Origin: Chloroflexota bacterium
GTDB lineage: Bacteria > Chloroflexota > Dehalococcoidia > GIF9 > AB-539-J10
Assembly (NCBI GenBank): GCA_034722275.1
Contig: JAYENW010000020.1
Coordinates: forward strand, 2,379-66,378
Reading direction: 5' to 3'
DNA length: 64,000 nt
Below, in pieces: positions 26,384 to 40,357 of the stretch. How positions within the stretch are numbered: position 1 is the stretch's first letter; each line of letters opens with the position of its first letter. Position numbers and translations under genes: made by a program. Under the pieces are notes generated by a model. The model saw only the letters and a list, made by a program, of their open reading frames with translations. It was not told the DNA's origin and searched no databases.

Positions 26384-26385
26384 AC

Positions 26386-27183
26386 GTGTCAGCGCAAATA
26401 TTACGAAGCAAAAACCTGGCTACTAAATTCCAGATATTGCTGGAGATAGCAGCTAATCAACCCAACATACAACAAAAAGATGTTGCTAAAAGACTGAGTA
26501 TAACTTCTCAGGCGGTCTCCGAATATGTTAAAGAACTGGTAAAAGATGGTTGGCTTAGTTCTCGTGGTCGTTCGCGATATAGGGTAACCAGAAAGGGTGT
26601 GGACTGGATTTTAAAGATGTCCCGGCAATTACAAAACTACTCCTCCTTTGTGAACAAGGTGATAAGTGATATAGCGACTTCTACTGCGATAGCTGATAGC
26701 GATTTATCAACCGGTCAAAGAGTTTCCCTATATATGAAAGATGGGGTGTTATTTACCTCTGATGCTCTGAGCGGTGAGGGAGCTGAAGGGATAACTGTTT
26801 CTGAAGCTAAAAAAGGCGAAGGTGTTGGTGTTTCTGGGATAGAGGGGGTGATAAAGCTTACAACTGGCAGGATAACTATAGGGAAAGTTCCTGGTGTGCA
26901 GGAAGGAGGTTCACGGAATACTGACCTTACCCGATTGAAAAATGAGGTAGGTAAAGCCAAGCTAATAGGAGCTATTGGGCTTGAAGCTTTGGTGGCCTTA
27001 AAACAGACAGATAAGCTCCCTCAATATTTTTATGGTGTCAAAGAAGCAGCGATAGAGGCAGCTTATTGTGGCCTGTCTTTTTTCATTGTTTGTAGCGAAG
27101 ATAATATTGCAGCATTAGTAGGGAAATTAGAAGAGGAAAACTTGAATTACAATATTGTCGATTTTGGAAAAGGTGTTAGCTAA
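26386..27183 (+). CDS. winged-helix (HTH) domain protein of unknown function
   Basis: The 265-aa product has an N-terminal HTH (KDVAKRLSITSQAVSEYVKELVKDGWL). The glycine-rich C-terminal domain has no assignable family. Confidence 0.4.
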   Translation: MSAQILRSKNLATKFQILLEIAANQPNIQQKDVAKRLSITSQAVSEYVKELVKDGWLSSRGRSRYRVTRKGVDWILKMSRQLQNYSSFVNKVISDIATSTAIADSDLSTGQRVSLYMKDGVLFTSDALSGEGAEGITVSEAKKGEGVGVSGIEGVIKLTTGRITIGKVPGVQEGGSRNTDLTRLKNEVGKAKLIGAIGLEALVALKQTDKLPQYFYGVKEAAIEAAYCGLSFFIVCSEDNIAALVGKLEEENLNYNIVDFGKGVS

Positions 27184-27898
27184 TATATTTTTGCTCTTGG
27201 GTGGTTATTTTTTGGGTGCTCTTCCTTTTGTTGTTGCCTTAGCCAGGACATCTGGATTGGATGCATCTCAAGAAGAAGATTTACATATTGCCTTATGGCA
27301 CAAGGCAAGCAAAAAAAAGGCTATACTGGCAGGAGGGGTGGATTTCCTTAAAGGAATCATTATTATACTCATTGGCTTTGGCTTTGGTTTACCGGCTATG
27401 GTGGTTGTTTTCTCTGGTGTGGCTGTTGTGGCAGGACAAATGTGGCCGCCTTTTCGTATTTGCCACGGGGAGAGGGGGAATCTGGTTGGTGTGGGTCTAG
27501 TATTTACCTTGCCCTTGCTTTACGGTGAATACTGGGTTCTGCTCTCTCTCATATTTTTTGCTGCCGGCGCTGCTCTGAAATATTACTATGAGAATCGTGG
27601 CAGTATGATTATTGAGACACGGGATAAGCATACTGGATTCTCCAACTTTGCCCATCGCATGACTCTGAGTTTACCTCTAGGTATGCTCCTGGGATTTGTT
27701 GCTGCTCCTGTAGTTTCTTGGTGCTCTGGTGGGCTAAAGGGCTTAACTCTGGGCTTTTTTGTCTTGTTTATTCTTATTGTAGTGCGGCGCTTAACTGCTG
27801 ACCTCAAGGATGATATAGGGAAAGGTAATTGTACTATAAAGGTGCTGTTTAATCGTTTTCTTTTTGACCAACCATTTATCGGTGAAGGAGTGGAGTAA
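27155..27898 (+). CDS. PlsY-family membrane protein, divergent paralog A (lacks canonical GSGNxGATN motif)
   Basis: The product is homologous over its whole length to the canonical PlsY at 56640-57260. It keeps the conserved blocks DFLKG and AGQMWPPFRICHGERGN (compare DIAKG, AGHSFPIFLQFRGGKG). Motif 1 is replaced by ALWHKASKKK. The TTG start at 27155 overlaps the upstream gene; a GTG at 27176 is an alternative start. Confidence 0.5.
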   Translation: MSILEKVLANIFLLLGGYFLGALPFVVALARTSGLDASQEEDLHIALWHKASKKKAILAGGVDFLKGIIIILIGFGFGLPAMVVVFSGVAVVAGQMWPPFRICHGERGNLVGVGLVFTLPLLYGEYWVLLSLIFFAAGAALKYYYENRGSMIIETRDKHTGFSNFAHRMTLSLPLGMLLGFVAAPVVSWCSGGLKGLTLGFFVLFILIVVRRLTADLKDDIGKGNCTIKVLFNRFLFDQPFIGEGVE

Positions 27899-28698: not shown

Positions 28699-29829
28699 GT
28701 GGAGAAGATAGTTCTTATTAACCTCACTGGTGGACCAACACTGAAAGAGGATGGCATTTATTTCACTGAGGGTGGTTTAGTACACGCCTTGTTTGCTTTA
28801 GCTAACCTGACTTCAGATTATGATATCACGATTCTCTGCCCTAACCTGCCGGGAAATAACCATAAACAGGAGATTAAATATCGAGGGGTTAATATCTTAT
28901 GCCTGGGAAGCTCCAGATGGATAAGGTGGATGCACAGTGGCGATTTATCTTTCCTTGAAGAAGCTAGAAACTACATTGTTGAAGAGAAACCAGACATCTT
29001 AATTGGGAATGGTGTTTCAGCATCGTTTCTTCTCCGCTTTATTCCCACAAGAGCCTGTAAAGTAGGGGTTGTTCACCACTTATACCACACTGCGTCTGTT
29101 GATGGCTCATCCAAGCGTGCATTCTCGGGGATTGGGATGCTGGAGAGACTGGCACTTAATTTAACTAAACTGGATAAGGTTGCCGTGATTAATCCTATGG
29201 TTAAAGGTAGTCTGGTAAAAGAAAGATTTGGCTCAGATGAGATTGTAGTTGTAGGCAATGGTGTTGATGTCGAACGCTATTTCTTCGTTGAAAATAAGGT
29301 GCCTTACAGTTTAATTTATATTGGGAGGTTGACTGAACTCAAGAGGGTGTGCTCTCTTGTTGGTGTTGTCGCCATGGTAAAGGAAAAAATTCCTGATGTA
29401 GTATTACACATTATTGGTGATGGTCCCAAACATAAAGAAGTAAGCCAGCGAATCGAAGACTTAGAGTTATCGCGGAACGTTATCATGCATGGCTATCTAC
29501 CCGAAGAAGAAAAGATTGAACTGTTGTCGAGCTCTGCCATCTATCTTTCTAACTCTGCTTTCGAAGGATTTGGCATTCCTTTGGTTGAAGCTATGGCTAC
29601 CGGTGCTGTTCCCATAGTTAGCGATATTGATGCCCACAGGTTCATTTTTCAAGGAGAAGATGTTGGTTGTTTAGTGGGAAATGAAGAGAAAATGGCGGAA
29701 AAGATTGTTGAACTGCTTGCTGATGAAACAGAACGGCTGAGATTAGCTTGGAATGGACGCAAGCTTGTGGAGGAAAGATGGACTTGGGCAAAAGTGGGTG
29801 AAAAGTATAAAGAGCTTCTTGGAAGATAA
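28699..29829 (+). CDS. glycosyltransferase family 4 (GT-B, GT1-like)
   Basis: The 376-aa product has a C-terminal EGFGIPLVEAMATG motif, the E-x7-E signature of retaining GT4 enzymes. Confidence 0.75.
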   Translation: MEKIVLINLTGGPTLKEDGIYFTEGGLVHALFALANLTSDYDITILCPNLPGNNHKQEIKYRGVNILCLGSSRWIRWMHSGDLSFLEEARNYIVEEKPDILIGNGVSASFLLRFIPTRACKVGVVHHLYHTASVDGSSKRAFSGIGMLERLALNLTKLDKVAVINPMVKGSLVKERFGSDEIVVVGNGVDVERYFFVENKVPYSLIYIGRLTELKRVCSLVGVVAMVKEKIPDVVLHIIGDGPKHKEVSQRIEDLELSRNVIMHGYLPEEEKIELLSSSAIYLSNSAFEGFGIPLVEAMATGAVPIVSDIDAHRFIFQGEDVGCLVGNEEKMAEKIVELLADETERLRLAWNGRKLVEERWTWAKVGEKYKELLGR

Positions 29830-30106
29830 TGGAGTGCACCCCTATATTGGCATAGAAAGGGGTAGGAGGGTTTGATGGGGTGCTTCATTATTTTGTTGAA
29901 CAAGTGCCAATTCCTCAAAATCATTTGGTGAAGGGTACCCCAATACTGAAACCTCTCTGATTCTTCATGGCAAGGGTCTTTCTAACCATTATTATAGGGT
30001 GCTCTGACCCTGCCGAACCTTCCTGCCATAAACTATCCAGTTCTAAGGGTCGCTCTAGATTGACCTGTTTACTGTTTACATAATGATTTGGCTGAATCAA
30101 GTTTAC

Positions 30107-30135
30107 TTGTTTATAATAAAATTAAGCTGTAGAAT
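30107..30135 (+). promoter_or_regulatory. candidate sigma70-type promoter for the corrinoid salvage operon (TTGTTT - 17 nt - TAGAAT)
   Basis: A -35 TTGTTT lies at 30107-30112, a 17-nt AT-rich spacer follows, and a -10 TAGAAT lies at 30130-30135, about 47 nt upstream of the btuF start. Confidence 0.3.
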
Positions 30136-30145
30136 ATAAATTGTG

Positions 30146-30156
30146 TGCCATTGGCA
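30146..30156. promoter_or_regulatory. perfect palindrome TGCCA-T-TGGCA overlapping the predicted transcription start, a candidate operator
   Basis: An 11-nt inverted repeat lies immediately downstream of the -10 element. The decamer ATTGGCATAG also occurs at 29847-29856. Confidence 0.25.
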
Positions 30157-30181
30157 TAGGCAATTTTAGGAGTCAAGTCTT

Positions 30182-31105
30182 ATGAGAGACGTAAGATTTT
30201 TTTTGTTGTTTTTAGTTCTGGTTCTTGTCTTCTCAATAGCCTGTTCTACTGCTGCGCCTCCAGGAGCCGTAGTTGATGATCTGGGAAGAGCAATCAATAT
30301 TGAACGAATACCTCAGAGGATTATCTCTTTAGCTCCTTCCAACACTGAGACACTATTTGCGTTAGGTCTAGGGGATAAAGTCGTGGGGGTGACGGAGTAT
30401 TGCAACTACCCGCCTGAAGCTCTGGATAAGGAAAAGATAGGGGGATATTCCACACCCGATATTGAAAAGATAATCGCACTGCAGCCTGATTTAGTACTGG
30501 CTAGTAGCATTCATGCCAAGGAATTTATTCCTGCTCTGGAGGAGAGAGGCCTCACGGTGTTTGCGTTGGCGCCAGAAAATCTAGGCGGGATACTCGAAGA
30601 TATCCGAATGGTGGGGGAAGTAACCGGAAAAGAGGAAGAAGCAAGTGAACTTGTAACCCGGATGGACAATAGGATTGAGGCAGTAACGAATAAAACCAAA
30701 AATATGCGAGAAAAACCAAGGATTTTCTTTATCACCTGGCATGAGCCCTTATGGACTGTTGGCTCGGGGACTATTATCCAGGAACTGATTGGGAAAGCAG
30801 GCGGAGTTAATATTTTCCAGGATATTAGTGGGCACAGCACAGTCGATCTTGAGGAAGTTATCTTTCGTGATCCTGAGGTAATTATTACTTGTACTGGGCA
30901 TGGAGATGCTAAAGGTAAACCTTTTGAGTGGGCAAAAAGTGAACCAAGGCTTCAGGTTACCAAGGCTAGAAAGAGTAGTAGGATATATCAAGTTGACGCT
31001 GATTTGGTTAATCGTGCTGGCCCCAGAGTGGTTGATGCTTTGGAGTGGTTTGCTTATTTTATTCATCCTGAAGTTTTCGGTAATCCGAAGGAGGTGATCA
31101 AGTGA
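30182..31105 (+). CDS. btuF: ABC transporter periplasmic substrate-binding protein, cobalamin / Fe3+-siderophore (BtuF-like) family
   Basis: The 307-aa product has a signal peptide with lipobox-like Cys (FSIACS) and a class III SBP fold (RIISLAPSNTETLFALGL...VVGVT). A GGAGG ribosome-binding site precedes it. It is the first gene of the corrinoid salvage cluster. Confidence 0.75.
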   Translation: MRDVRFFLLFLVLVLVFSIACSTAAPPGAVVDDLGRAINIERIPQRIISLAPSNTETLFALGLGDKVVGVTEYCNYPPEALDKEKIGGYSTPDIEKIIALQPDLVLASSIHAKEFIPALEERGLTVFALAPENLGGILEDIRMVGEVTGKEEEASELVTRMDNRIEAVTNKTKNMREKPRIFFITWHEPLWTVGSGTIIQELIGKAGGVNIFQDISGHSTVDLEEVIFRDPEVIITCTGHGDAKGKPFEWAKSEPRLQVTKARKSSRIYQVDADLVNRAGPRVVDALEWFAYFIHPEVFGNPKEVIK

Positions 31106-31737
31106 AGGTTTTTTCTTCCTGGAGTGGTGGAAAGGAATCTGCCCTGGCGACTTATAAGGCAATTTCACAAGGCCACGAAGTTTTGTATTTGGTCAATTTC
31201 GTCTCTGAAGATGGAAAGAGATCTAGGTCTCATGGGATCAAGGCTAATGTTTTGGCTTTACAGGCGGAAGCTATGGGCATTCCCTTAATTCAGGTAAAAA
31301 CATCTTGGGAAGATTATGAAGAGAATTTTAAAAAAGTTGCAACGCGGCTCAAGAAGAAAGGAATAGAGGGTGGAATTTTTGGCGATATGGAATTGGAGGA
31401 GCATCGGGAATGGATAGAAAGGGTCTGTGGTGAACTAAAAATAAAGGCGTTTTTGCCACTTTGGGGGATAGAGGCTGAGGAGCTGATCGATGAGTTTCTC
31501 AAGCTAGGATTTAAGGCTATGGTGATAGCTACTAAATTAGATGAGAATTTACTGGGGAAAGTTTTAGATGAGGCTCTTTTGAACCAAGTTATTCGACTTG
31601 GCTCCCACCCGTGTGGGGAAAATGGAGAATACCACACTTTTGTCACTTCAGGACCCACTTTCAAGAAGCCATTCGAAGTTGCTTTGGGGAAAAAAGAAGA
31701 AAGAGATGATACATGGTTTTTGGAAGTTTTGGCTTAA
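31102..31737 (+). CDS. PP-loop ATP pyrophosphatase of the MJ0570 / diphthine-ammonia ligase (ATP_bind_4) family
   Basis: The 211-aa product has a SWSGGKESA PP-loop and is colinear with MJ0570-like proteins (EVLYLVNFVSE, HTFVTSGP). A GTG start overlaps the btuF stop by 4 nt, preceded by an AAGGAGG ribosome-binding site. Confidence 0.7.
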   Translation: MKVFSSWSGGKESALATYKAISQGHEVLYLVNFVSEDGKRSRSHGIKANVLALQAEAMGIPLIQVKTSWEDYEENFKKVATRLKKKGIEGGIFGDMELEEHREWIERVCGELKIKAFLPLWGIEAEELIDEFLKLGFKAMVIATKLDENLLGKVLDEALLNQVIRLGSHPCGENGEYHTFVTSGPTFKKPFEVALGKKEERDDTWFLEVLA

Positions 31738-31765
31738 TACAATAAAGATTAATGAAGGGAGTAAG

Positions 31766-32296
31766 ATGAAAGAGAAAGGTTTAACTCAAATATATACTGG
31801 AGATGGTAAAGGAAAGTCTACCGCTGCTGTTGGTCAAGCAGTTCGTGCTGCCGGTCACGATTTAAAAGTGGGCTTGGTCACTTTCTTTAAAGATCCCGAG
31901 GTATTTGGATATGGAGAATATCGATCTCTGCAAAGGCTGGGGATAAAAACATTTCACTTTGCCAGGAAGCATCCTCATTTTTATAAGGAAGTGAGCATGG
32001 ATGAAGTCAGGGAAGAATGCCTAGAAGGCGTGGAGTTTATTGAGGAACTTTTCAAAGATAAGTCCTGGGATATACTGGTTTTGGATGAAATAAACATTGC
32101 TGTGCGCGATGGCTTCTTGAAGGAAGAGGAGGTTCTTTCTCTTTTGGAGGCGAAGCCGGAGAAATTGGAGCTTATCTTAACGGGTCGTGGAGTTTCAGAA
32201 AAGATTATAGAGAAGGCAGATTTGGTTAGCGAGGTTAAGAAGATAAAACATCCTTATGATCAGGGAATACAAAAAAGAGAAGGCATTGAATATTAG
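31766..32296 (+). CDS. cobA: cob(I)yrinic acid a,c-diamide / cob(I)alamin adenosyltransferase (CobA/BtuR type)
   Basis: The start is an ATG at 31766 with an AGGGAG ribosome-binding site. The product begins MKEKGLTQIYTGDGKGKSTAAVG with the CobA P-loop and has the downstream ILDEIN motif. The longer ORF-track start at 31598 would overlap the preceding gene and is rejected. Confidence 0.8.
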   Translation: MKEKGLTQIYTGDGKGKSTAAVGQAVRAAGHDLKVGLVTFFKDPEVFGYGEYRSLQRLGIKTFHFARKHPHFYKEVSMDEVREECLEGVEFIEELFKDKSWDILVLDEINIAVRDGFLKEEEVLSLLEAKPEKLELILTGRGVSEKIIEKADLVSEVKKIKHPYDQGIQKREGIEY

Positions 32297-32346
32297 TATA
32301 GATTACCTGGAATGTGCTCTTGGAGCTTTGTGTCTGAGGGTTAACG

Positions 32347-33450
32347 ATGTTGTTACATGCGGTGTCAGAATCAATCAGTGAGCCTGCTATACCTTATGCT
32401 CTTCATTGGAGGGGCAAGCTTTATGCCCTGATAGGGGTTTTGGGATTGCTTGTGGCAACAGTTATATTTGCCACTACCCTGGGAAGTGCTCATATACCTT
32501 TTTCTACTTGTCTTCAGGTTCTTCTTTCCCAGATACCTTTTTTACACATCAGCCTATCCTGTCCAGCGACTCTTAATATAGCAACCTTGAATACGATAAT
32601 CGTGGATATCAGGCTGCCGCGGATTCTTCTGGCGGGCTTGGTGGGAGCAGCCTTGGCGGTAGCTGGGGCTACTTACCAGGGATTATTTCGTAATCCCTTG
32701 GCTGATCCCTATCTTCTTGGTGTTGCCTCGGGGGCTGGATTGGGAGCTACCGTTGCTTTCCTCATTCCCTTCGCTATCTCTTGGATGAGCCTTGGTGCAG
32801 TTCCTTTATTTGCTTTCATTGGCGCTATGGGTGCTGTGGCTGTAGTCTATTCATTAGCTCGTGTGGGCAAGACCCTGCCAGCAACCACCCTTATCCTGGC
32901 TGGAGTAGCTTTGGGTGCTTTTCTATCTTCAATCACCTCTTACCTTATGACTATTTGTGGGGAGGAACTGCATGGGATTGTATTTTGGCTGATGGGGGGA
33001 CTTTCCCTGACTAAATGGTCTGAAGTATGGACGGTTCTGCCTTGTGTATTGGTGGGCATTGTAATCATCTGTCTTCATGCTCGGCCTCTTAATGTGATGC
33101 AGCTTGATGAAGAGCAGGCACAGCAATTGGGCATTAATGTGGAGAGAGTCAAGCTTATCTTGATGAGCGCAGCCACTTTAATTACTTCTGCTGCAGTTTG
33201 CTTCACGGGTCTAATAGGTTTCGTTGGTATCATTGTTCCCCATGCGGTGAGGCTTATTTGGGGTCCTGACTATCGTTTCTTGCTCCCCTTGTCTGTTTTA
33301 GTTGGTGCTGTATTCCTCATCCTTGCTGACACCTTGGCGCATACATTGCTTTCTCCTACAGAGATTCCGGTGGGTATAATCACCGCTTTCTGTGGAGCCC
33401 CCTTCTTTCTTTATTTATTGCGACGAAAAAAAGGACTTGCTTTCTTTTAA
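32347..33450 (+). CDS. btuC: FecCD-family ABC permease (corrinoid/siderophore type)
   Basis: The 367-aa product has about 9-10 transmembrane helices, a conserved RLPRILLAGLVGAALA segment and a C-terminal EIPVGIITAFCGAPFFLYLL motif. Confidence 0.8.
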   Translation: MLLHAVSESISEPAIPYALHWRGKLYALIGVLGLLVATVIFATTLGSAHIPFSTCLQVLLSQIPFLHISLSCPATLNIATLNTIIVDIRLPRILLAGLVGAALAVAGATYQGLFRNPLADPYLLGVASGAGLGATVAFLIPFAISWMSLGAVPLFAFIGAMGAVAVVYSLARVGKTLPATTLILAGVALGAFLSSITSYLMTICGEELHGIVFWLMGGLSLTKWSEVWTVLPCVLVGIVIICLHARPLNVMQLDEEQAQQLGINVERVKLILMSAATLITSAAVCFTGLIGFVGIIVPHAVRLIWGPDYRFLLPLSVLVGAVFLILADTLAHTLLSPTEIPVGIITAFCGAPFFLYLLRRKKGLAFF

Positions 33451-33485
33451 AGAGGCTATATTTAAGCAAAATAGGGTAAAGTGTC

Positions 33486-34292
33486 ATGATTGAACTAAAG
33501 GACGTCAGTTTAGGCTATAACCATCGGGCTGTCCTGAATAATATAAACCTGGAGGCGGTGCCAGGTAAGATGTTGGGGCTCATTGGACCTAATGGTTCGG
33601 GGAAGTCAACATTGATCAAGGGGATGACTAGGGTGATCAATCTTTTCTCCGGGCATATTTTTATTGATGGTCATGAAATAGCTAGTATGAAGAGAGAGGA
33701 GCTTGCTAAATTTGTGGCTGTTGTACCCCAAAATCCTGTTTTGCCTGAAGCTTTCACTGCCTTTGAAATGGTGCTCATGGGGCGGACGCCTCATCTGGGG
33801 CTTCTTCGCTATGAAGGGGGAAAGGATATAGCTATTGTCTGGCAAGCGATGAAAATGACACAAGCGGAATTTCTCGCGGAACGCAGAGTGGGGGAGCTTT
33901 CTGGAGGAGAAAAGCAGAGACTTGTTATCGCTCGGGCTTTAACTCAGCAGTCAGAGGTGCTTCTTCTTGATGAGCCCACTGCACAGTTAGACATAAATAA
34001 CCAAATTGAGATTCTAGACTTGATCAAGAGACTGTCCCTTGAGCATAGTTTGACTGTTATTGTTGCCTTGCATGACCTCAATTTGGCAGCTCAATATTGC
34101 GATTGGCTGGTCATGCTGAAGGAAGGAAAGATTTATACTGAGGGTATACCCCAAGATGTACTTGTTCCTCACAATATCAAAGATGTATATGGAGCTGAAG
34201 TAAGCGTCCTTCCTCATCCGGTCAATGGTTTGCCGGTGACGCTTATTACAAGCAGTGAAGGCAACAAAGAAAAGGACTACATTCGCTATTAA
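33486..34292 (+). CDS. btuD: ABC transporter ATP-binding protein (BtuD/FepC type)
   Basis: The 268-aa product has Walker A (GPNGSGKST), an ABC signature (LSGGEKQR) and Walker B (LLLDEPT). Confidence 0.85.
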   Translation: MIELKDVSLGYNHRAVLNNINLEAVPGKMLGLIGPNGSGKSTLIKGMTRVINLFSGHIFIDGHEIASMKREELAKFVAVVPQNPVLPEAFTAFEMVLMGRTPHLGLLRYEGGKDIAIVWQAMKMTQAEFLAERRVGELSGGEKQRLVIARALTQQSEVLLLDEPTAQLDINNQIEILDLIKRLSLEHSLTVIVALHDLNLAAQYCDWLVMLKEGKIYTEGIPQDVLVPHNIKDVYGAEVSVLPHPVNGLPVTLITSSEGNKEKDYIRY

Positions 34293-34300
34293 GGAAAGCT

Positions 34301-35233
34301 GTGGAAGTTTTATTTGTCTTTCTTCTGGCCCTGGTTCTCGACTTTTTTGTGGGTGAGCCACCTCGACCTGTGCATCCTGTTGTCTGGATGGGAAAGCTGA
34401 TATCTCTATTGGAGCGAATCGCCTTTCCCCGTGATTCTCGAGCACAATTCATCTATGGCAGCATAATGTGCTTGCTTACTATTCTTGTCTTTGTCTTACC
34501 AGTCTATTTTCTCTTGTCCTTTCTCCATGATTTAAATTCTATAGCTTATGTATTTTTAGCTGCTTTGTTGTTAAAAAGTACTTTTGCCTTTAGAGAATTG
34601 CGACAGACTGCTTTGATGGTCAAATCATTTCTTTCTCAAGATAATTTAAAGAAAGCTCGTGCTGCTATGCCGGCTTTAGTTAGCCGTGACACTCAAGGCA
34701 TGGGGAAGCCCGAGCTGGTATCAGCAACGATAGAATCTGTGGCAGAGAACATTTGTGATAGTTTCATTGCTCCCTTATTTTACTTCTTGTTTCTTGGGGT
34801 GTCTGGTGCCATAGCTTATCGTGTGGTCAATACGTTAGATGCCATGATTGGTTATCATGGGGAATGGGAATATTTGGGCAAATTTGCTGCCAGGCTGGAT
34901 GATATCCTGAATTTCGTCCCGGCACGAATCTCGGGATTATTGCTGGTAGCGGCAGCATATCTATATCATAAAGATGGCAAAAGTGCCTGGCGAATTATGC
35001 TTCGTGACCACTATAAAACGGAAAGTCCTAATGCTGGGTGGACTATAAGCGCTATGGCAGGGGCGCTTGGGACACGATTGGAAAAGAGAGCTTACTATAC
35101 TTTAGGTGATAGCAGCAATCCCTTGTCAAATCAACTGATTGGCTCTGGAGTGAGATTGCTTGATATCTCTGCCCTGCTTTGGGTTGGCCTTTACTTCATC
35201 ATGGAGGTAATGTTTTTTGTCTTTATCGCCTAA
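34301..35233 (+). CDS. cbiB: adenosylcobinamide-phosphate synthase CbiB/CobD
   Basis: The 310-aa membrane protein has a conserved HPV..MG N-terminal motif (PPRPVHPVVWMGK) and CbiB-family topology. Confidence 0.85.
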   Translation: MEVLFVFLLALVLDFFVGEPPRPVHPVVWMGKLISLLERIAFPRDSRAQFIYGSIMCLLTILVFVLPVYFLLSFLHDLNSIAYVFLAALLLKSTFAFRELRQTALMVKSFLSQDNLKKARAAMPALVSRDTQGMGKPELVSATIESVAENICDSFIAPLFYFLFLGVSGAIAYRVVNTLDAMIGYHGEWEYLGKFAARLDDILNFVPARISGLLLVAAAYLYHKDGKSAWRIMLRDHYKTESPNAGWTISAMAGALGTRLEKRAYYTLGDSSNPLSNQLIGSGVRLLDISALLWVGLYFIMEVMFFVFIA

Positions 35234-36344
35234 ACAAGTATCATGGAGACCTACCCCTAGCCGTGTGGGTCTAATGCCTGCTACGCATGGAGGTATTGAT
35301 TACGCTGAGCTAGAGATGCTGGGTATTGCCTCTCAGGAGGTTCTCGATTTCAGTGCTAACTTAAACCCTTTTGGGCCACCGCCGGGGATAATGGAGGCAA
35401 TAAACGAAATGGACGTCTCTCATTATCCTGATTCTGAGTCTACCTCTTTGAGGCGCTCCTTAAGCAGCAGTTTGGGGATAAAGGAGAATAATATAATAGT
35501 GGGCAATGGTTCTACTGAGCTTATACGCCTTGCTGCTCTGGCATATTTGGACAAGGAGGACAAAGTGCTCGTTATTGAGCCCACATTTGGCGAGTATGAG
35601 CTTGCTTGCCAACTTGCCGGGGCATCTGTGATAAAACAACAGTTGTTGCCGGAAGATGTTTTCCGCTTAGATGTAAAGGAAACCCTTGCCTTAATTCAGC
35701 GCCATGGTATTACAGGGGTCTTTATTGCTAATCCCAATAATCCCAGTGGGCAATATATCTCACAGATAGAGTTTGAGAAAATTCTGGATGCGGCTAAGAA
35801 TGCTTTAGTAGTTCTGGATGAGGCTTATATTAGCTTTGTCGAGAATAGCTGGACTTCTTTCGATTTCATCCTTGCTGGTAACTTGCTCGTTTTACGCTCT
35901 ATGACAAAAGATTATGCCATGGCTGGGCTTCGTCTCGGCTATGGAGTGGCAAGTGAGGAAATTATCGCTAACTTGCATAATATCTCTTTGCCCTGGAATG
36001 TCAATGCTCTAGCGCAAAAAGCAGGGATTGTGGCTTTGGAAAATGAAGACTATCTTAATCATTGTCGGGCAGAGCTTGAGAAAGCAAAAAGCTATCTGAT
36101 AACGGAGCTTTCCACTCTTGGTTTATCTCCACTTCCTTCAAAGGCAAATTTCTTTCTGGTAGAAGTTGGTGATGCCAGGATATTCCGCACGGAGTTGCTT
36201 AAACGAAAGATATTGGTACGTGATTGCACTTCGTTTGGTCTTCCCCATTACATTCGCATTGCTCCTCGTACTTTACCTGAATGTCAAAAATTAATTGCCT
36301 CAGTTAAAGAGATAATGAAAGGAAAAAGGAGGATAGGACTTTGA
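35217..36344 (+). CDS. cobD: L-threonine-O-3-phosphate decarboxylase (class I/II aminotransferase fold)
   Basis: The 375-aa product has a PLP-lysine region (SMTKDYAMAGLRLGY) and HGG near the N-terminus. The TTG start at 35217 sits 8 nt after a GGAGG. The ATG at 35274 is an alternative start. Confidence 0.75.
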   Translation: MSLSPKQVSWRPTPSRVGLMPATHGGIDYAELEMLGIASQEVLDFSANLNPFGPPPGIMEAINEMDVSHYPDSESTSLRRSLSSSLGIKENNIIVGNGSTELIRLAALAYLDKEDKVLVIEPTFGEYELACQLAGASVIKQQLLPEDVFRLDVKETLALIQRHGITGVFIANPNNPSGQYISQIEFEKILDAAKNALVVLDEAYISFVENSWTSFDFILAGNLLVLRSMTKDYAMAGLRLGYGVASEEIIANLHNISLPWNVNALAQKAGIVALENEDYLNHCRAELEKAKSYLITELSTLGLSPLPSKANFFLVEVGDARIFRTELLKRKILVRDCTSFGLPHYIRIAPRTLPECQKLIASVKEIMKGKRRIGL

Positions 36345-37414
36345 GTATCTCTCTTTATCAGGTACTGAAAGAAATAAAGCCCATGGATGTAGAGGCTATG
36401 AAGACAGCTCAGACTCGTCAGGATGAGCTGACCAAACCAGGGGGAAGTTTAGGCCGATTGGAGGAACTATCTATTCAAATGGCTGGTATTAAAGGCAAGG
36501 TAATATCGGGCTTTCAGCACAAAGCCATTATCACTATGGCTGCTGACCATGGTGTAGTAAATGATGAGGTCAGTCTTTACCCTCAGGAAGTTACCAGGCA
36601 GATGGTGTTTAATTTCCTTGCTGGGGGTGCTGCCATAAATGTTCTGGCTCGTCTCGTAGGCGCTCGCGTTGTCATCGTCGATATGGGAGTGATTGGAGGG
36701 GTTGAGCCGCATCCTGGCCTTATCTGCAAGATGATTGATTTTGGCACCAAAGATATGACTAAAGGGCCGGCAATGACGAGAGGGCAAGCACTGGATTCAA
36801 TTCAAGCTGGAATTGAAGTCATAGAAGGCGAAATCGCTAAAGGTCTTGATATTGTAGGCACTGGGGATATGGGTATTGGTAATACTACTGCCAGTAGTGC
36901 TATATGTGCTGCTATTACAGGAGACCTGGTGGAGAATGTGACTGGGTATGGTGCCGGGCTCAGTGATAAACAGCGTGCTCATAAGATTAAGATGATTAAA
37001 CAGGCTTTGGAGCTTAACAAACCTGATTCCAAAGACCCTATTGATGTATTAAGTAAAGTCGGAGGTTTTGAAATTGGAAGCTTAGCTGGGGTTATGCTTG
37101 GGGCAGCAACTCATCGAATCCCTGTGGTCATCGATGGTTTTATCTCGGGAGCTGCGGCACTCATAGCTACTGAACTTGCGCCTGTGTTAAAGAATTATCT
37201 TATCGCGGCACATCTTTCTGCTGAAGGTGGACATAAGAGATTGCTGGAATATTTAGGATTGGTTCCTCTTCTAAACTTGGGAATGCGCCTTGGCGAGGGG
37301 ACAGGGGCGGTACTGGGAATGGCAATTGTAGAAGCGGCAGTGAAAACTTTGAATGAGATGGCTACTTTTGCTGAAGCTGGTGTTTCACAGAGCAAGGAAG
37401 ACTCGTTATCTTGA
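36341..37414 (+). CDS. cobT: nicotinate-nucleotide--dimethylbenzimidazole phosphoribosyltransferase
   Basis: The 357-aa product has an LTKPGGSLGRLEEL N-terminal motif, a GDMGIGNTT signature and a catalytic Glu region. A TTG start follows an AAGGAGG ribosome-binding site. Confidence 0.85.
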   Translation: MSISLYQVLKEIKPMDVEAMKTAQTRQDELTKPGGSLGRLEELSIQMAGIKGKVISGFQHKAIITMAADHGVVNDEVSLYPQEVTRQMVFNFLAGGAAINVLARLVGARVVIVDMGVIGGVEPHPGLICKMIDFGTKDMTKGPAMTRGQALDSIQAGIEVIEGEIAKGLDIVGTGDMGIGNTTASSAICAAITGDLVENVTGYGAGLSDKQRAHKIKMIKQALELNKPDSKDPIDVLSKVGGFEIGSLAGVMLGAATHRIPVVIDGFISGAAALIATELAPVLKNYLIAAHLSAEGGHKRLLEYLGLVPLLNLGMRLGEGTGAVLGMAIVEAAVKTLNEMATFAEAGVSQSKEDSLS

Positions 37415-37498
37415 ATATAGGTAAAGCTCCAGGACTCTTTGTTGTGCTCGGAATGGTAGAATGCCGCAGTGAAAATTCAAAGAAAGAGGAATGACTAA

Positions 37499-38266
37499 GT
37501 GAGATTCTGGACTGCTTGGCAGTTTCTTACCATAATACCTCCTCCCCACCGTTCTGAATATACTTCTGGTGATATGAGTAAGTCGCTAATCTTTTTCCCC
37601 ATAGTGGGGCTTTTCTTGGGGTTGGTACTGTTGGGTTTGGATTTTCTCCTGGGATTATTTTTGCCACCTATCTTGATCAATGTCTTGCTTCTGGTTGTTT
37701 TGGTTGTCCTCACGGGGGCTTTACACCTCGATGGTTTCATTGATACCTGTGATGGCCTCGCAGTCAAGAGTTCGGTTCGGGAAAAGTTATATGTTATGAG
37801 TGATAGTCGTGTTGGTGGTTTTGGAGTCGTGGGAGGCTGCTGCCTCATCCTGGCTGAATTTGCCTCATTGGTTGCCCTGCCGGAGGGATTAAGGTCGAGC
37901 GCTCTCGTGCTTATGCCTCTTTTGAGTCGCTGGGGAATGGTCTATGCTATTTTTAGCTTCCCTGCGGCTAAGAAAGAAGGGGTGGGATGGGCTATTAAGC
38001 AAGGGGCTGATTGGAAAGAAATGGCTTTAGCAACAGTGATTTCTTTGATGATTGCGTTGGCTTTATTCAGTTGGTGGGGAGCAGTGCTTCTGGCAGCAAT
38101 TTGTCTGCTTATCCTGCTGTTTTCAAAATATCTTTACTCCCGGTTTGGAGGTCTCACCGGAGATAACTATGGTGCTATAAATGAGTTTGCTGAAGTAGCC
38201 GTGCTCCTTTTAATTTTTATAATAGGTAAATTGGGAGGTGCTAGCTGGCTGAGTGCATTCTTATAA
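37499..38266 (+). CDS. cobS: adenosylcobinamide-GDP ribazoletransferase (cobalamin synthase)
   Basis: The 255-aa polytopic membrane protein has conserved Asp residues (LHLDGFIDTCDG). Confidence 0.8.
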   Translation: MRFWTAWQFLTIIPPPHRSEYTSGDMSKSLIFFPIVGLFLGLVLLGLDFLLGLFLPPILINVLLLVVLVVLTGALHLDGFIDTCDGLAVKSSVREKLYVMSDSRVGGFGVVGGCCLILAEFASLVALPEGLRSSALVLMPLLSRWGMVYAIFSFPAAKKEGVGWAIKQGADWKEMALATVISLMIALALFSWWGAVLLAAICLLILLFSKYLYSRFGGLTGDNYGAINEFAEVAVLLLIFIIGKLGGASWLSAFL

Positions 38267-38310
38267 ATTGATAGGTTTTATTTTCATGACCTTGGCAGAA
38301 AAGCGATCTC

Positions 38311-38886
38311 ATGGCTAAGAATTTTATCCTTATTCTTGGTGGAATTCGCAGTGGCAAGAGCAGGTTTGCCCAGAGCATGGCAGCAAAACTTGGGAAGAAG
38401 GTACTTTTTGTAGCTACTGCAGAAGCTCTTGACGCTGAAATGACTTTCAGGATCAGGGAGCATAAAAAGGTGCGCCCTAAGGACTGGCGGACACTGGAGA
38501 TTAATATCAATGTGGGGCAGAAGTTGGGAAGGCAGATTGCTGATGCCGATGTCGTTTTGCTTGATTGTTTAACCTTGCTCGTCTCTAATGTGATAATTGG
38601 AGATAGCAAAAGCCCTGCCTCTGTAGCACAGAAACGCGTCGTGTCTGAGATAGAAGATTTAGTTAAGTGTATTGATAAATGTGAAGGTACCTTTATCATA
38701 GTTTCTAACGAAGTGGGTTTGGGCCTGATGCCTGCGAATAAATTAGGTCGGCTTTACTGCGATTGTCTGGGCAGAGCCAATCAACTTCTAGCCCGGCATG
38801 CAAGCCATGTTTACTTTATGGTCTCAGGTATTCCAATCGCAATAAAAGGTGAAGTACATCAGGAATGTGAAAGAGGTTGGGAATAA
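38311..38886 (+). CDS. cobU: adenosylcobinamide kinase / adenosylcobinamide-phosphate guanylyltransferase
   Basis: The 191-aa product has a P-loop (ILGGIRSGKS) and the CobU family C-terminal region. Confidence 0.85.
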   Translation: MAKNFILILGGIRSGKSRFAQSMAAKLGKKVLFVATAEALDAEMTFRIREHKKVRPKDWRTLEININVGQKLGRQIADADVVLLDCLTLLVSNVIIGDSKSPASVAQKRVVSEIEDLVKCIDKCEGTFIIVSNEVGLGLMPANKLGRLYCDCLGRANQLLARHASHVYFMVSGIPIAIKGEVHQECERGWE

Positions 38887-39791
38887 CCGCAAGTTCGGCA
38901 GTGATATTTGCCCATGCTCGCCCCACAGCAGGGGCATTTAATTTCGTTACCTCTGGCCTGGAGAATTTCTCCCACTACTTCATTATAGATATGATAATAA
39001 AAGCAATGTTCTTTATTTATAAAAGCTATGCCTGTCTTCTTTTTGGCAAGCTGAAATTCTTCCTCAGGGACCATATCGCTGATGATGTTGTGAAGTATGT
39101 GGGATCCGGAGCCATATTCTATGGGTTCCTTTTTCCTCCAGATTATCTCTGCTGGAATCAGGTTTTCAAAGCTCTTTCTCAAGATATATTTTCCGATGCC
39201 TTCTTTGACTTTGAGTTCTGAACTTATGTCTAAAGCGAAGCGAACAAAGTCATCATCAAGGAAAGGCTGTTTTACTTTGATACCGAGTGCTTTGCCAATA
39301 TCTATGGAAGAAAAGTGCCAGTTTTGTGAAAGTTCTCTTATGTATCTATCAAGATGTTTGGGTAAAAGTTTTGTCATGTAAGAATAGCCGGCAAAGAGCT
39401 CATCGCTTCCGTCCCCAGTCATGACAGAGTGGACATTCTTTTCTCTGGCAAGCCTGAGAGCAAAATATATGGAGAGGTCATTGGGCAGGGCGAGGTCGAA
39501 AGTTTTTAATATTCGAATAACCTCGGGGAGTATATTCAGTGCCTCTGCCACGGTGAATTCCTTTTTCTTATGCTCCATCTCCAGGGAAGTGGATACTTTT
39601 TCTGCATAAAGAGGGTCAAGAGCCTGAGAATCTTTTAAAGCCGCTGTAAAGGCTATCTTGGGCTTTGCCGTAAAGGCCAAAATGCTGGTATCCAGTCCTC
39701 CTGACAGCAATATAGCATCAGCTTTATTCTTGTTGACAGCCTTCATAAAGTTATCTCTGAGACAATGATAAATATCCATAGTGAATATCAA
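38859..39791 (-). CDS. asparagine-synthetase-like PP-loop protein lacking the glutaminase domain, with C-terminal zinc ribbon
   Basis: The 310-aa product has an AsnB C-domain PP-loop (ILLSGGLDTSILAF). It has no N-terminal Ntn glutamine amidotransferase domain. The C-terminus reads CPCCGASMGKYHCRTCGY. The gene is convergent with cobU and overlaps it by 28 nt. Confidence 0.6.
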   Translation of the reverse strand: MIFTMDIYHCLRDNFMKAVNKNKADAILLSGGLDTSILAFTAKPKIAFTAALKDSQALDPLYAEKVSTSLEMEHKKKEFTVAEALNILPEVIRILKTFDLALPNDLSIYFALRLAREKNVHSVMTGDGSDELFAGYSYMTKLLPKHLDRYIRELSQNWHFSSIDIGKALGIKVKQPFLDDDFVRFALDISSELKVKEGIGKYILRKSFENLIPAEIIWRKKEPIEYGSGSHILHNIISDMVPEEEFQLAKKKTGIAFINKEHCFYYHIYNEVVGEILQARGNEIKCPCCGASMGKYHCRTCGYSQPLSHS

Positions 39792-40352: not shown

Positions 40353-40357
40353 TGTAG

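What the first reader, a model, noticed from the sequence alone, without database searches (positions are those of the whole stretch)
31102..31737. MJ0570/Dph6-family PP-loop amide ligase embedded in the corrinoid salvage operon, with a second glutaminase-less AsnB-like PP-loop enzyme capping the operon
PP-loop enzymes of these families adenylate a carboxylate and transfer ammonia to it. The diphthine-ammonia ligase and asparagine synthetase C-domains are the established examples. The first is translationally coupled between btuF and cobA. The second (38859-39791) converges on cobU.

No cbiA or cbiP amidotransferase genes occur in the cluster. A plausible but unproven role is ammonia-dependent re-amidation of imported, incompletely amidated corrinoid side chains during salvage.
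Basis: inference. Interest (0 to 1): 0.6.

Follow-up and report, generated by a model that had tools for sequence, protein, structure and literature searches.

The report
Two adenylating enzymes tied to B12 salvage
A vitamin-B12 uptake and salvage operon of an uncultured Dehalococcoidia bacterium carries a Dph6-like enzyme already predicted in 2012 to act in B12 salvage, and an asparagine-synthetase-like neighbour that recurs with B12 genes in bacteria, archaea and eukaryotes; what either enzyme does is still untested.

Summary
Both genes are real and at the stated coordinates.

**First gene.** ORF 31102-31737 is a PF01902 PP-loop protein. It carries the GENGEYHT motif that defines the "DUF71-B12" subgroup (de Crécy-Lagard 2012, PMC3541065). 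It is not a diphthine-ammonia ligase. Its place in a btuF-DUF71-cobA-btuCD-cbiB-cobD-cobT-cobS-cobU operon is therefore a published association. I found no later experimental work on its function.

**Second gene, apparently new.** The gene at 38859-39746(-) belongs to a distinct clade of asparagine-synthetase-like proteins with no glutaminase domain and a C-terminal zinc ribbon.
- It sits at the 3' end of this operon in 17/17 related loci with at least 8 kb of flank.
- It lies next to DUF71 in Archaeoglobi, in another archaeon, and in the same gene string in Omnitrophota.
- It is fused to a CobY-like domain in archaea.
- It is fused, on a weak match, to an MMACHC/CblC-like domain in Aphanomyces oomycetes.

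**CbiZ.** CbiZ sits in the same operon as DUF71 in four bacterial loci. This weakens the 2012 idea that DUF71-B12 replaces CbiZ.

**Interpretation.** ATP/NH3-dependent amidation of corrinoid carboxylates is the best-fitting mechanism. It is inferred, not shown.

The parts
30182..31105 (+). btuF: corrinoid ABC-transporter substrate-binding protein, first gene of the operon
   Evidence: PF01497 E 6e-38. BtuF NF002894 E 1e-31, below its cut-off.
31090..31105 (+). Shine-Dalgarno GGAGGTGA plus GTGA stop/start overlap that couples btuF to the DUF71 gene
   Evidence: Sequence read directly.
31102..31737 (+). DUF71-B12-type PP-loop ATP pyrophosphatase (PF01902). PP-loop SGGKES; signature GENGEYHT.
   Evidence: The motif definition comes from PMC3541065.
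31766..32296 (+). cobA: ATP:corrinoid adenosyltransferase
   Evidence: PF02572 E 2.5e-56. Gene call of 176 aa.
32347..33450 (+). btuC: permease
   Evidence: PF01032 FecCD.
33486..34292 (+). btuD: ABC ATPase
   Evidence: PF00005.
34301..35233 (+). cbiB: adenosylcobinamide-phosphate synthase
   Evidence: PF03186 E 1e-90. TIGR00380 scores 293.5, above its cut-off of 165.9.
35217..36344 (+). cobD: L-threonine-phosphate decarboxylase-like PLP enzyme
   Evidence: PF00155. TIGR01140 scores 266 against a cut-off of 290, so it is just below.
36341..37414 (+). cobT: NaMN:base phosphoribosyltransferase
   Evidence: TIGR03160 scores 440, above its cut-off of 319.
37499..38266 (+). cobS: cobamide synthase
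   Evidence: TIGR00317 scores 134.9, above its cut-off of 110.
38311..38886 (+). cobU: adenosylcobinamide kinase/guanylyltransferase. The public gene call starts at 38377.
   Evidence: NF004469 scores 188.9, above its cut-off of 161..
38859..39746 (-). Glutaminase-less AsnB-like PP-loop enzyme with a C-terminal zinc ribbon. It is convergent on cobU and overlaps its 3' end by 28 nt. The ORF could extend to TTG 39791.

Best explanation
The window holds a corrinoid uptake and salvage operon of a Dehalococcoidia bacterium. Two non-canonical PP-loop ATP pyrophosphatases are attached to it.

**The two enzymes.** The first is a member of the DUF71-B12 subgroup of the MJ0570/Dph6 family. It is translated as part of the operon. 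The second is a member of a separate clade of asparagine-synthetase C-domain proteins with no glutaminase domain and a C-terminal zinc ribbon. It is transcribed on its own, convergent on the last operon gene.

**Proposed mechanism.** Each enzyme binds ATP at its SGGxD/ES loop and adenylates a free carboxylate of an imported corrinoid. That carboxylate could be a deamidated acetate or propionate side chain of a cobamide, cobinamide or cobyric-acid-like precursor. Free ammonia then displaces AMP, and the amide that downstream enzymes and B12-dependent enzymes need is restored. The two enzymes would cover different side chains or different substrates.

**Shown here:**
- the family memberships;
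- the operon structure;
- the conserved association of both genes with corrinoid genes in bacteria and archaea;
- fusion of the AsnB-like clade to B12-handling domains in archaea and in oomycetes.

**Inferred:**
- the substrate is a corrinoid;
- the chemistry is carboxylate adenylation;
- the nucleophile is NH3.
For: **Family and motifs**
- PF01902 E 9e-54 and PF00733 E 4e-43.
- PP-loops are intact in both proteins. The Lys equivalent to ASNS Lys-466 is kept in the AsnB-like protein (PMC6748925).
- Neither protein has a glutaminase domain, and no glutaminase gene lies in the operon.

**DUF71-B12 signature**
- GENGEYHT aligns to GEGGEFET of Dph6 PF0828.
- Every DUF71 relative retrieved, from Dehalococcoidia to Bacteroidota and archaea, keeps the [YF]-H-T core of this motif.
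- The published association is that 75/102 members lie next to btuFCD (PMC3541065).

**Synteny**
- btuF-DUF71-cobA-btuC is conserved in most Dehalococcoidia loci.
- In loci found with the AsnB-like protein as bait, the btu/cob operon lies convergent downstream in 17/17 loci with at least 8 kb of flank and 23/24 with at least 5 kb. No B12 gene lies on the other side in 0/33 loci.

**Independent lineages**
- Archaeoglobi L030 and L035 have overlapping DUF71 and AsnB-like genes between cobD and cbiB.
- Omnitrophota L036 has AsnB-like, radical SAM, DUF71, btuFCD and cobA in one string.
- Archaeon L128 has a CobY-like::AsnB-like fusion followed 19 nt later by DUF71, with CbiZ, CbiB and CobD nearby.

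**Fusions**
- A CobY-like domain is fused to AsnB-like in P0263, P0312 and P0395.
- An MMACHC-like domain is fused to AsnB-like in Aphanomyces, in 10 cluster members.

**Clade structure**
- The zinc-ribbon clade separates from the nearest glutaminase-bearing AsnB with 100/100 NJ bootstraps. Its corrinoid-linked members are spread over its three main branches.

**Against the CbiZ-substitute alternative**
- CbiZ shares the operon with DUF71 in bacterial loci L003, L021, L024 and L054.
Against: - No biochemical or genetic data exist for either family. I found none in the literature.
- No substrate is identified, and a corrinoid has never been shown to bind either protein.
- Five of seven archaeal AsnB-like genes sampled have no B12 neighbours. 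One lies next to gatB. The clade may therefore have more than one function, or may simply make asparagine in some organisms.
- The MMACHC match is below Pfam's cut-off (20-24 bits against 27). It rests on weak but exclusive hits.
- Within Dehalococcoidia the AsnB-like/operon synteny could be inherited rather than selected. Insertions of up to 5.9 kb, including a restriction-modification methylase, split the two.
- Many DUF71-B12 loci have no AsnB-like gene within 10 kb, for example Bacteroidota L041 and L042.
- No cobalamin riboswitch was found in the window or in eight related loci.
- That deamidated corrinoids are a relevant environmental pool is an assumption.
Confidence: 0.42

Rival explanations
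1. The 2012 hypothesis: DUF71-B12 does the job of bacterial CbiZ. It either cleaves adenosyl-pseudo-B12 or cobinamide to adenosylcobyric acid, or it gives another route for salvaging cobamides with the wrong lower ligand, so that CbiB has a substrate.
For: - The 2012 paper reported a distribution in which nearly all CbiB genomes have either CbiZ or DUF71-B12, with strict anticorrelation in bacteria (PMC3541065).
- This operon has cbiB and cobD but no cbiZ, and no CbiZ occurs in the 64 kb window.
Against: - CbiZ (PF01955, E 1e-39 to 1e-50) sits in the same operon as DUF71 in four bacterial Dehalococcoidia loci, L003, L021, L024 and L054. It also sits near DUF71 in archaeal L030 and L128.
- From my own knowledge of the superfamily, PP-loop enzymes adenylate substrates and build C-N or C-S bonds. 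None is known to hydrolyse an amide.
- Many related operons contain only btuF-DUF71-cobA-btuCD, with no cbiB nearby.
Confidence: 0.12
2. One or both enzymes activate the f-propionate carboxylate of cobyric acid as an acyl-adenylate and pass it to an amine other than ammonia, such as aminopropanol, aminopropanol phosphate or another linker. They would be helping or bypassing CbiB in rebuilding the nucleotide loop.
For: - DUF71 and AsnB-like lie between cobD and cbiB in Archaeoglobi.
- AsnB-like is fused to a CobY-like domain, and CobY acts one step after CbiB.
- The 2012 paper found 18/102 DUF71-B12 genes next to cbiB.
- From my own knowledge, AsnB-family enzymes can use amine nucleophiles other than NH3, as beta-lactam synthetase and lasso-peptide cyclases do. 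Those families appear as weak hits.
Against: - To my knowledge, most CbiB-containing organisms have neither family.
- Many operons here carry DUF71 with transport genes only.
- The AsnB-like clade occurs in eukaryotes (oomycetes, chytrids, a dictyostelid). To my knowledge these have no CbiB/CobS pathway. In Aphanomyces it is fused to MMACHC, which handles complete cobalamin.
Confidence: 0.15
3. The AsnB-like gene has nothing to do with B12. It is an ammonia-dependent asparagine synthetase, or another housekeeping amidoligase, that happens to lie next to the operon. Only the DUF71 gene belongs to the salvage system.
For: - It is on the opposite strand with its own promoter region.
- In relatives it is separated from the operon by up to 5.9 kb of unrelated genes.
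- Most archaeal homologues sampled lie in unrelated contexts, and one lies next to gatB.
- Residues equivalent to ASNS Asp-367, Glu-368 and Lys-466 are kept.
Against: - The association is one-sided: 23/24 against 0/33 loci.
- The gene is adjacent to, or overlaps, DUF71 in two distant archaeal lineages, and lies in the same gene string in Omnitrophota.
- It is fused to CobY-like and MMACHC-like domains.
- ASNS residues Glu-364, Asp-400 and Arg-403 are replaced by Asp, Trp and Ser (PMC6748925).
- Scores are far below the AsnB equivalog cut-offs.
Confidence: 0.15
4. Like Dph6, the DUF71 protein, possibly together with the AsnB-like protein, amidates a protein carboxylate rather than a small molecule. 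The target could be a corrinoid-binding or trafficking protein.
For: - The only characterised members of PF01902 act on a protein, EF-2 diphthine (PMC3541065).
- The zinc ribbon on the AsnB-like protein could mediate protein contacts. This is inference.
Against: - According to the 2012 paper, residues predicted to bind EF-2 all differ in the DUF71-B12 subgroup, and the catalytic Glu is replaced by His (confirmed for this protein).
- No candidate target protein is conserved across the loci apart from transport and biosynthetic enzymes.
Confidence: 0.06

Closest known systems
DUF71-B12 subgroup of COG2102/PF01902 (e.g. P. furiosus PF0295; de Crécy-Lagard et al. 2012, PMC3541065)
   Same: It has the same domain, the same PP-loop and the same ENGE[FY]H signature with His in place of the Dph6 Glu. 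It shows the same clustering with btuFCD, cobA and cbiB.
   Different: In this lineage, CbiZ is found in the same operon in close relatives, contrary to the reported anticorrelation in bacteria. A second PP-loop enzyme, the AsnB-like protein, travels with it. The 2012 paper did not report that partner in B12 clusters. It noted only GATase-AsnB-DUF71 fusions in a few archaea and read them as an ammonia supply for Dph6.
Dph6 diphthine-ammonia ligase (EC 6.3.1.14; PF0828, PDB 3rjz; yeast YLR143W)
   Same: It has the same fold family (phmmer E 3e-33 to 3rjz) and the same ATP-binding residues. It probably uses the same adenylate-then-ammonia chemistry.
   Different: The host is a bacterium, and bacteria lack diphthamide (PMC3541065). 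Glu188 is replaced by His. The score is 133.8 against the TIGR03679 cut-off of 197.3. NCBI's name for it, 'diphthine--ammonia ligase', is a mis-annotation.
Asparagine synthetase B / human ASNS (EC 6.3.5.4; PDB 1ct9, 6gq3)
   Same: The synthetase (PP-loop) domain, the SGGLDTS loop and the Lys-466 equivalent are kept. The beta-aspartyl-AMP mechanism is the model for carboxylate adenylation followed by NH3 attack.
   Different: - It has no N-terminal glutaminase domain.
- It has an added C-terminal zinc ribbon.
- Glu-364 becomes Asp, Asp-400 becomes Trp and Arg-403 becomes Ser.
- It forms a separate clade (100/100 NJ bootstraps).
- It is linked to corrinoid genes.
CbiA/CobB and CbiP/CobQ, the corrinoid side-chain amidotransferases of de novo B12 synthesis
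   Same: They carry out the proposed net reaction: ATP-dependent conversion of corrin side-chain carboxylates to amides.
   Different: They are not homologous. To my knowledge, CbiA and CbiP are CbiA-family ATPases with a fused glutaminase, and they yield ADP + Pi. The proteins here are PP-loop enzymes that should yield AMP + PPi and use free NH3. No cbiA or cbiP lies in the cluster.
CbiZ adenosylcobinamide / pseudo-B12 amidohydrolase
   Same: It shares the genomic niche: corrinoid salvage operons next to btuFCD and cbiB.
   Different: It has an unrelated fold and the opposite chemistry, hydrolysis. It co-occurs with DUF71 in four related bacterial operons, so the two are not simple substitutes.

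Membership tests
DUF71-B12 subgroup (PMC3541065) | PF01902/COG2102 domain over the whole protein | tested here: met
   PF01902 E 9.4e-54, residues 1-209 of 211.
DUF71-B12 subgroup (PMC3541065) | PP-loop SGGKD/ES ATP-binding motif | tested here: met
   SWSGGKES at residues 6-13, aligned to SGGKDS of PF0828.
DUF71-B12 subgroup (PMC3541065) | ENGE[FY]H signature, with His replacing Glu188 of Dph6 | tested here: met
   GENGEYHT aligns to GEGGEFET of 3rjz. The same His is present in all retrieved relatives.
DUF71-B12 subgroup (PMC3541065) | Physical clustering with btuFCD and/or cbiB | tested here: met
   The gene lies between btuF and cobA-btuCD-cbiB. The arrangement is conserved in most Dehalococcoidia loci.
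DUF71-B12 subgroup (PMC3541065) | Strict anticorrelation with CbiZ in bacteria | tested here: not met
   No CbiZ occurs in this window, and the whole genome is not available. In related bacterial loci L003, L021, L024 and L054, CbiZ (PF01955) lies in the same operon as DUF71. This is a reported distribution pattern rather than a structural criterion.
Dph6 diphthine-ammonia ligase | Score at or above the TIGR03679 equivalog cut-off | tested here: not met
   133.8 bits against a cut-off of 197.3.
Dph6 diphthine-ammonia ligase | EGGE/DxE motif with catalytic Glu188 | tested here: not met
   His is at that position.
Dph6 diphthine-ammonia ligase | Host makes diphthamide (EF-2, Dph2, Dph5) | not testable with these tools
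   The source is a Chloroflexota/Dehalococcoidia MAG. Bacteria lack diphthamide according to PMC3541065. The full genome could not be searched.
Asparagine synthetase B (glutamine-hydrolysing) | N-terminal class II glutaminase domain | tested here: not met
   Only PF00733 matches, and the protein begins about 10 residues before the PP-loop.
Asparagine synthetase B (glutamine-hydrolysing) | Score at or above the equivalog cut-offs | tested here: not met
   NF006949 scores 149.9 against 499. TIGR01536 scores 136.6 against 267.1.
Asparagine synthetase B (glutamine-hydrolysing) | Conserved synthetase-site residues Glu-364, Asp-367, Glu-368, Asp-400, Arg-403 and Lys-466 (human numbering, PMC6748925) | tested here: inconclusive
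   Asp-367, Glu-368 and Lys-466 are kept. Glu-364 becomes Asp, Asp-400 becomes Trp and Arg-403 becomes Ser (alignment; roles).
Zinc-ribbon, glutaminase-less AsnB-like clade (delimited here) | About 300 aa, PF00733 only, C-terminal CxxC...CxxC | tested here: met
   CPCCG...CRTCG in this protein. The four Cys are invariant in alignments A1 and A2. Most of the 150 best representatives have the ribbon.
Zinc-ribbon, glutaminase-less AsnB-like clade (delimited here) | Monophyly against the nearest glutaminase-bearing AsnB | tested here: met
   NJ tree of 53 sequences, 100/100 bootstraps for the split. Distance method only.
Zinc-ribbon, glutaminase-less AsnB-like clade (delimited here) | Association with corrinoid genes | tested here: met
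   Synteny in 23/24 loci. Next to DUF71 in L030, L035 and L128, and in the same gene string in L036. CobY-like and MMACHC-like fusions. Not universal: five of seven archaeal contexts are unrelated to B12.
CbiA/CbiP corrinoid amidotransferases | CbiA-type ATPase domain plus GATase_3 glutaminase domain | tested here: not met
   Neither protein matches those Pfam families, and no such gene is on record in window ~22.4-41.7 kb.

The most novel reading that the evidence does not exclude
The zinc-ribbon, glutaminase-less AsnB-like clade is a previously unrecognised family of corrinoid-dedicated amide synthetases found in bacteria, archaea and eukaryotes. Together with DUF71-B12 it forms a B12 repair and salvage module that re-amidates deamidated cobamides (cobalamin carboxylic acids) or under-amidated precursors, using ATP and free ammonia. 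In oomycetes the enzyme is fused to MMACHC, so that incoming cobalamin is repaired while it is being processed. This would be a non-homologous counterpart of CbiA/CbiP and a new step in eukaryotic B12 handling.
Probability: 0.25. Interest if true: 0.8.

Novelty: new variant of a known kind. Interest (0 to 1): 0.55.

Why it matters
DUF71-B12 has been a "function unknown, B12 salvage" family since 2012. It is routinely mis-named diphthine-ammonia ligase in bacterial genomes, including this one.

Three observations narrow the possible chemistry to something done to the corrin ring itself:
- DUF71-B12 travels with a second adenylating enzyme.
- It coexists with CbiZ in the same operon in related bacteria.
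- Its partner's clade is fused to CobY-like and MMACHC-like domains and reaches into eukaryotes.

This gives a short list of substrates to test. If the enzymes re-amidate damaged or incomplete corrinoids, there would be consequences in three areas:
- It would add a repair step to B12 metabolism.
- It would change how corrinoid cross-feeding is modelled for Dehalococcoidia and other B12 auxotrophs, including organisms relevant to bioremediation.
- It would suggest an unknown function in B12-using eukaryotes.

If the enzymes do not do this, the result is still useful. It corrects an annotation and removes the CbiZ-substitute hypothesis for this lineage.

Tried and rejected
- **Cobalamin riboswitch.** Rfam found nothing at gathering score in the whole window. 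It found nothing relevant at E up to 10 in 29600-30400, and nothing in eight related loci. A regulatory link to B12 could not be shown.
- **Metagenome scan.** A scan with a cross-phylum AsnB-like alignment returned only close Dehalococcoidia relatives, 62-95% identity. It was useful for counting synteny but not for breadth. Breadth came from the representative search and its follow-ups.
- **AlphaFold model.** The model of the Aphanomyces fusion P0376 without an alignment was unusable, with mean pLDDT 33. The MMACHC assignment therefore rests on weak sequence hits only. No fold search was run.
- **Extra domains.** I looked for a DUF71 domain in the longest Aphanomyces member (P0518, 854 aa) and found none.
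- **Gap genes.** I checked whether the genes between the AsnB-like gene and btuD in relatives are B12-related. They are a restriction-modification methylase and unknowns.
- **Dph6 reading.** Rejected on motif, score and host.
- **Ordinary AsnB reading.** Rejected on the missing glutaminase, low scores, changed site residues and separate clade.
- **Literature.** Searches for experimental work on DUF71-B12, or for any AsnB-like/B12 link, found only the 2012 paper and citations of it.
Full report
**1. What is in the window**

The region 30182-38886 (+) is one tightly packed gene string. Its genes are btuF (PF01497), a PF01902 gene, cobA (PF02572), btuC (FecCD), btuD (ABC ATPase), cbiB, cobD, cobT, cobS and cobU.

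The PF01902 ORF runs from 31102 to 31737 and encodes 211 aa. It matches the family over its full length (E 9.4e-54). Its GTG start overlaps the btuF stop (GTGA) and lies 8 nt after GGAGGTGA. cobA begins at ATG 31766, 28 nt after the PF01902 stop.

An ORF on the minus strand at 38859-39791 matches only the asparagine-synthase C-domain PF00733 (E 4e-43). It has no glutaminase domain and ends in CPCCG...CRTCG. The public gene call and the nearest homologue are 295 aa, so ATG 39746 is the likely start. Its 3' end overlaps that of cobU by 28 nt.

No CbiA/CbiP-type gene is on record for window ~22.4-41.7 kb. No CbiZ is detectable in the 64 kb window. The identical protein is deposited from a Chloroflexota MAG under the name "diphthine--ammonia ligase", and the closest loci are Dehalococcoidia MAGs.

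**2. The first gene is a DUF71-B12 protein, and that link is published**

De Crécy-Lagard et al. 2012 (PMC3541065) split DUF71/COG2102 into two groups: true Dph6, and a bacterial and second-archaeal-copy group they called DUF71-B12.
- 75/102 of the DUF71-B12 genes lie next to btuFCD-type transporters, and 18/102 lie next to cbiB.
- The group is defined by an ENGEF/YH motif in which His replaces the Dph6 catalytic Glu188.

The window protein reads SWSGGKES ... GENGEYHT. These align to SGGKDS ... GEGGEFET of Dph6 PF0828 (3rjz, E 3e-33). It scores 133.8 bits against a Dph6 equivalog cut-off of 197.3. All relatives I retrieved keep the [YF]-H-T core of the motif, from Dehalococcoidia to Bacteroidota, Omnitrophota, ANME-1, Archaeoglobi and Jordarchaeales.

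So it is a member of DUF71-B12 and not of Dph6. A 2016 review still lists the group as "function unknown, B12 salvage". My searches found no later experimental work.

**3.

Among 45 genome loci that encode relatives, most Dehalococcoidia loci carry btuF-DUF71-cobA-btuC, usually followed by btuD. Some carry the full cbiB-to-cobU block. More distant loci keep DUF71 beside btu or cob genes: Chloroflexi L038, Bacteroidota L041 and L042, and Omnitrophota L036.

**4. The second gene is the more informative part**

I used the AsnB-like protein as bait and recovered 80 metagenome loci, all Dehalococcoidia at 62-95% identity.
- The btu/cob operon lies convergent on the bait's 3' side in 17/17 loci with at least 8 kb of flank, and in 23/24 with at least 5 kb.
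- None of 33 loci with at least 3 kb on the other side has a B12 gene there.
- The nearest operon gene is btuD (26 loci), cobU (10) or cobA (2).
- The gap ranges from -21 to 5931 nt.
- The larger gaps hold unrelated genes such as a restriction-modification methylase. This is conserved neighbourhood, not an operon, and within one class it could be inherited.

Evidence from outside the class is what counts.
- **Archaeoglobi (L030, L035).** DUF71 (GESGEYHT) and the AsnB-like gene overlap. They lie between cobD and cbiB, with cobS, a CobY-like gene, CbiZ and btuF nearby.
- **Omnitrophota (L036).** The order is AsnB-like, radical SAM/SPASM, DUF71, btuF, btuC, btuD, cobA, then a large outer-membrane-receptor-like ORF that I did not annotate.
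- **An archaeon (L128, GCA_015520475.1).** A CobY-like::AsnB-like fusion is followed 19 nt later by DUF71 (GENGEFHT). A CbiZ-PgpA fusion, CbiB and a CobD-type aminotransferase lie within 6 kb.

**5. Extent of the AsnB-like clade, and its fusions**

An exhaustive search of 1.84 billion cluster representatives gave 114 clusters at E up to 1e-30. Most are 295-345 aa and end in CxxC...CxxC. The longer ones are informative.
- P0263, P0312 and P0395 carry an N-terminal MobA-like nucleotidyltransferase. Its best specific matches are TIGR00454 and the CobY model NF045495, both below their cut-offs.
- P0376 carries an N-terminal domain whose only Pfam hit is MMACHC (E 4.5e-5, 23.6 bits against a cut-off of 27). 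Its only PDB hits are MMACHC/CblC structures (E 4e-4 to 7e-3).

P0376 and nine cluster mates come from Aphanomyces oomycetes, on contigs of up to 2.5 Mb. Unfused members occur in two chytrids and in the dictyostelid Acytostelium.

In an NJ tree, the zinc-ribbon proteins separate from the nearest glutaminase-bearing AsnB in 100/100 bootstraps. The corrinoid-linked members fall in three different branches: Dehalococcoidia plus Archaeoglobi; eukaryotes with the MMACHC fusion; and archaea with the CobY fusions.

The association is not universal. Of seven archaeal genes whose contexts I read, one is the L128 cluster. One sits beside a DUF4430 protein, a domain found at the C-terminus of transcobalamins (PMC4350170). 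Five have unrelated neighbours, one of them gatB.

**6. What the proteins probably do**

Both proteins keep the ATP-binding PP-loop. The AsnB-like protein keeps the equivalent of ASNS Lys-466. That residue contacts the phosphate of the acyl-adenylate intermediate and is essential in AsnB. Neither protein has a glutaminase domain, and none is encoded in the operon.

From my own knowledge of the superfamily (AsnB, NadE, GuaA, QueC, Dph6), such enzymes adenylate a carboxylate or carbonyl and replace AMP with a nitrogen or sulfur nucleophile.

In the AsnB-like protein three conserved ASNS synthetase-site residues are changed: Glu-364 to Asp, Asp-400 to Trp and Arg-403 to Ser. Asp-367 and Glu-368 are kept. 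Aspartate as the substrate is therefore doubtful but not excluded.

The simplest reading that fits every association is ATP- and ammonia-dependent amidation of corrinoid side-chain carboxylates. The associations it must fit are transport genes, cobA, cbiB, CobY, MMACHC, and eukaryotes that (to my knowledge) take up complete cobalamin and do not rebuild its nucleotide loop. It remains an inference, and I put it at about 0.4.

**7. The published alternative is weakened**

The 2012 paper proposed that DUF71-B12 replaces bacterial CbiZ. Its basis was strict anticorrelation between the two in bacteria. In four bacterial Dehalococcoidia loci (L003, L021, L024, L054), a bona fide CbiZ (PF01955, E 1e-39 to 1e-50) lies in the same operon as DUF71. 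Amide hydrolysis is also not PP-loop chemistry. I keep this rival at about 0.12.

The other rivals are scored in the report sections:
- an adenylate-forming helper or bypass for CbiB that uses an amine other than ammonia;
- an unrelated asparagine synthetase lying next to the operon by chance;
- a protein-modifying role.

**8. Novelty and verdict**

The DUF71 gene is a new member of a known, functionally uncharacterised subgroup. What I did not find in the literature is the recurring partnership with a zinc-ribbon AsnB-like clade, that clade's fusions to CobY-like and MMACHC-like domains, its reach into eukaryotes, and the co-occurrence of DUF71 with CbiZ. I therefore rate the whole as a new variant of a known kind, of moderate interest. 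It is not surprising in itself. But it turns a 14-year-old "function unknown" into a short, testable list of substrates.

**9. Limits**

- There is no experimental evidence.
- The source genome is not available, so presence or absence of CbiZ, CbiA and CbiP elsewhere in it is unknown.
- The MMACHC and CobY assignments are below curated cut-offs.
- The tree is distance-based.
- No riboswitch or other regulatory tie to B12 was found.
- The structure prediction for the fusion failed.

Noticed in passing
L029:9977-16325 and L044:10001-16322 (ANME-1 / Methanophagales): In these loci a His-type DUF71 (GEHGEYHT) is the first gene of a string of overlapping genes: DUF71, DUF2162 (predicted transporter), a MotA/ExbB-like protein, DUF2149, and a 1322-aa CobN/Mg-chelatase homologue. 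No btu or cob salvage genes lie nearby. This is a second, different tetrapyrrole context for the family.
   Followed up: partly
P0376 and cluster mates (Aphanomyces cochlioides / A. euteiches); P0322 (Acytostelium); P0367, P0521 (chytrids): The zinc-ribbon AsnB-like clade occurs in eukaryotes. In Aphanomyces oomycetes it is fused to an N-terminal MMACHC/CblC-like domain. The match is weak: Pfam 20-24 bits against a cut-off of 27, and the only PDB hits are MMACHC.
   Followed up: partly
L003:12657-13472, L021:12017-13105, L024:1482-2210, L054:9049-9789: CbiZ genes (PF01955) lie inside the same Dehalococcoidia operons as DUF71-B12. This contradicts the strict anticorrelation in bacteria reported in 2012.
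   Followed up: yes
window 29830-30181, and loci L003, L010, L011, L013, L022, L030, L036, L128: No cobalamin riboswitch, and no other Rfam family, was found upstream of btuF or anywhere in these corrinoid salvage loci. How the operon is regulated is unknown.
   Followed up: yes
L036:820-2232: In the Omnitrophota B12 uptake cluster, a radical SAM/SPASM protein of 470 aa lies between the AsnB-like gene and DUF71.
   Followed up: no
L030:3173-5548: A 791-aa predicted surface protein lies just upstream of btuF in Archaeoglobaceae. It combines a DUF4430 domain (the kind found at the C-terminus of transcobalamins) with prenyltransferase/squalene-cyclase-like repeats. It may be a corrinoid-capture protein.
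   Followed up: no
L128:6181-7341 and L128:3097-4816: A CbiZ-PgpA fusion gene sits next to cbiB. The F420 genes cofC and cofD sit directly after DUF71 in the same archaeal locus.
   Followed up: no
window 40782-41810 and 45075-46061: There are two plsX paralogues, 49% identical, about 3 kb apart. They flank a fatty-acid synthesis block (acyl carrier protein-like ORF, short-chain reductase, ketoacyl synthase-like ORF; names by eye, not scanned). Two MaoC-like dehydratase genes lie at 39942-40795.
   Followed up: no
window 23803-27898: folD and formate-tetrahydrofolate ligase are followed by a MarR/HTH-DUF7839 regulator and a PlsY-type acyltransferase, upstream of the B12 operon. The regulator is the nearest candidate transcription factor, but I did not examine it.
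   Followed up: no
window 38859-38886: The convergent genes cobU and AsnB-like overlap by 28 nt at their 3' ends. There is no room for separate terminators. In related loci the gap varies from -21 to 5931 nt.
   Followed up: partly
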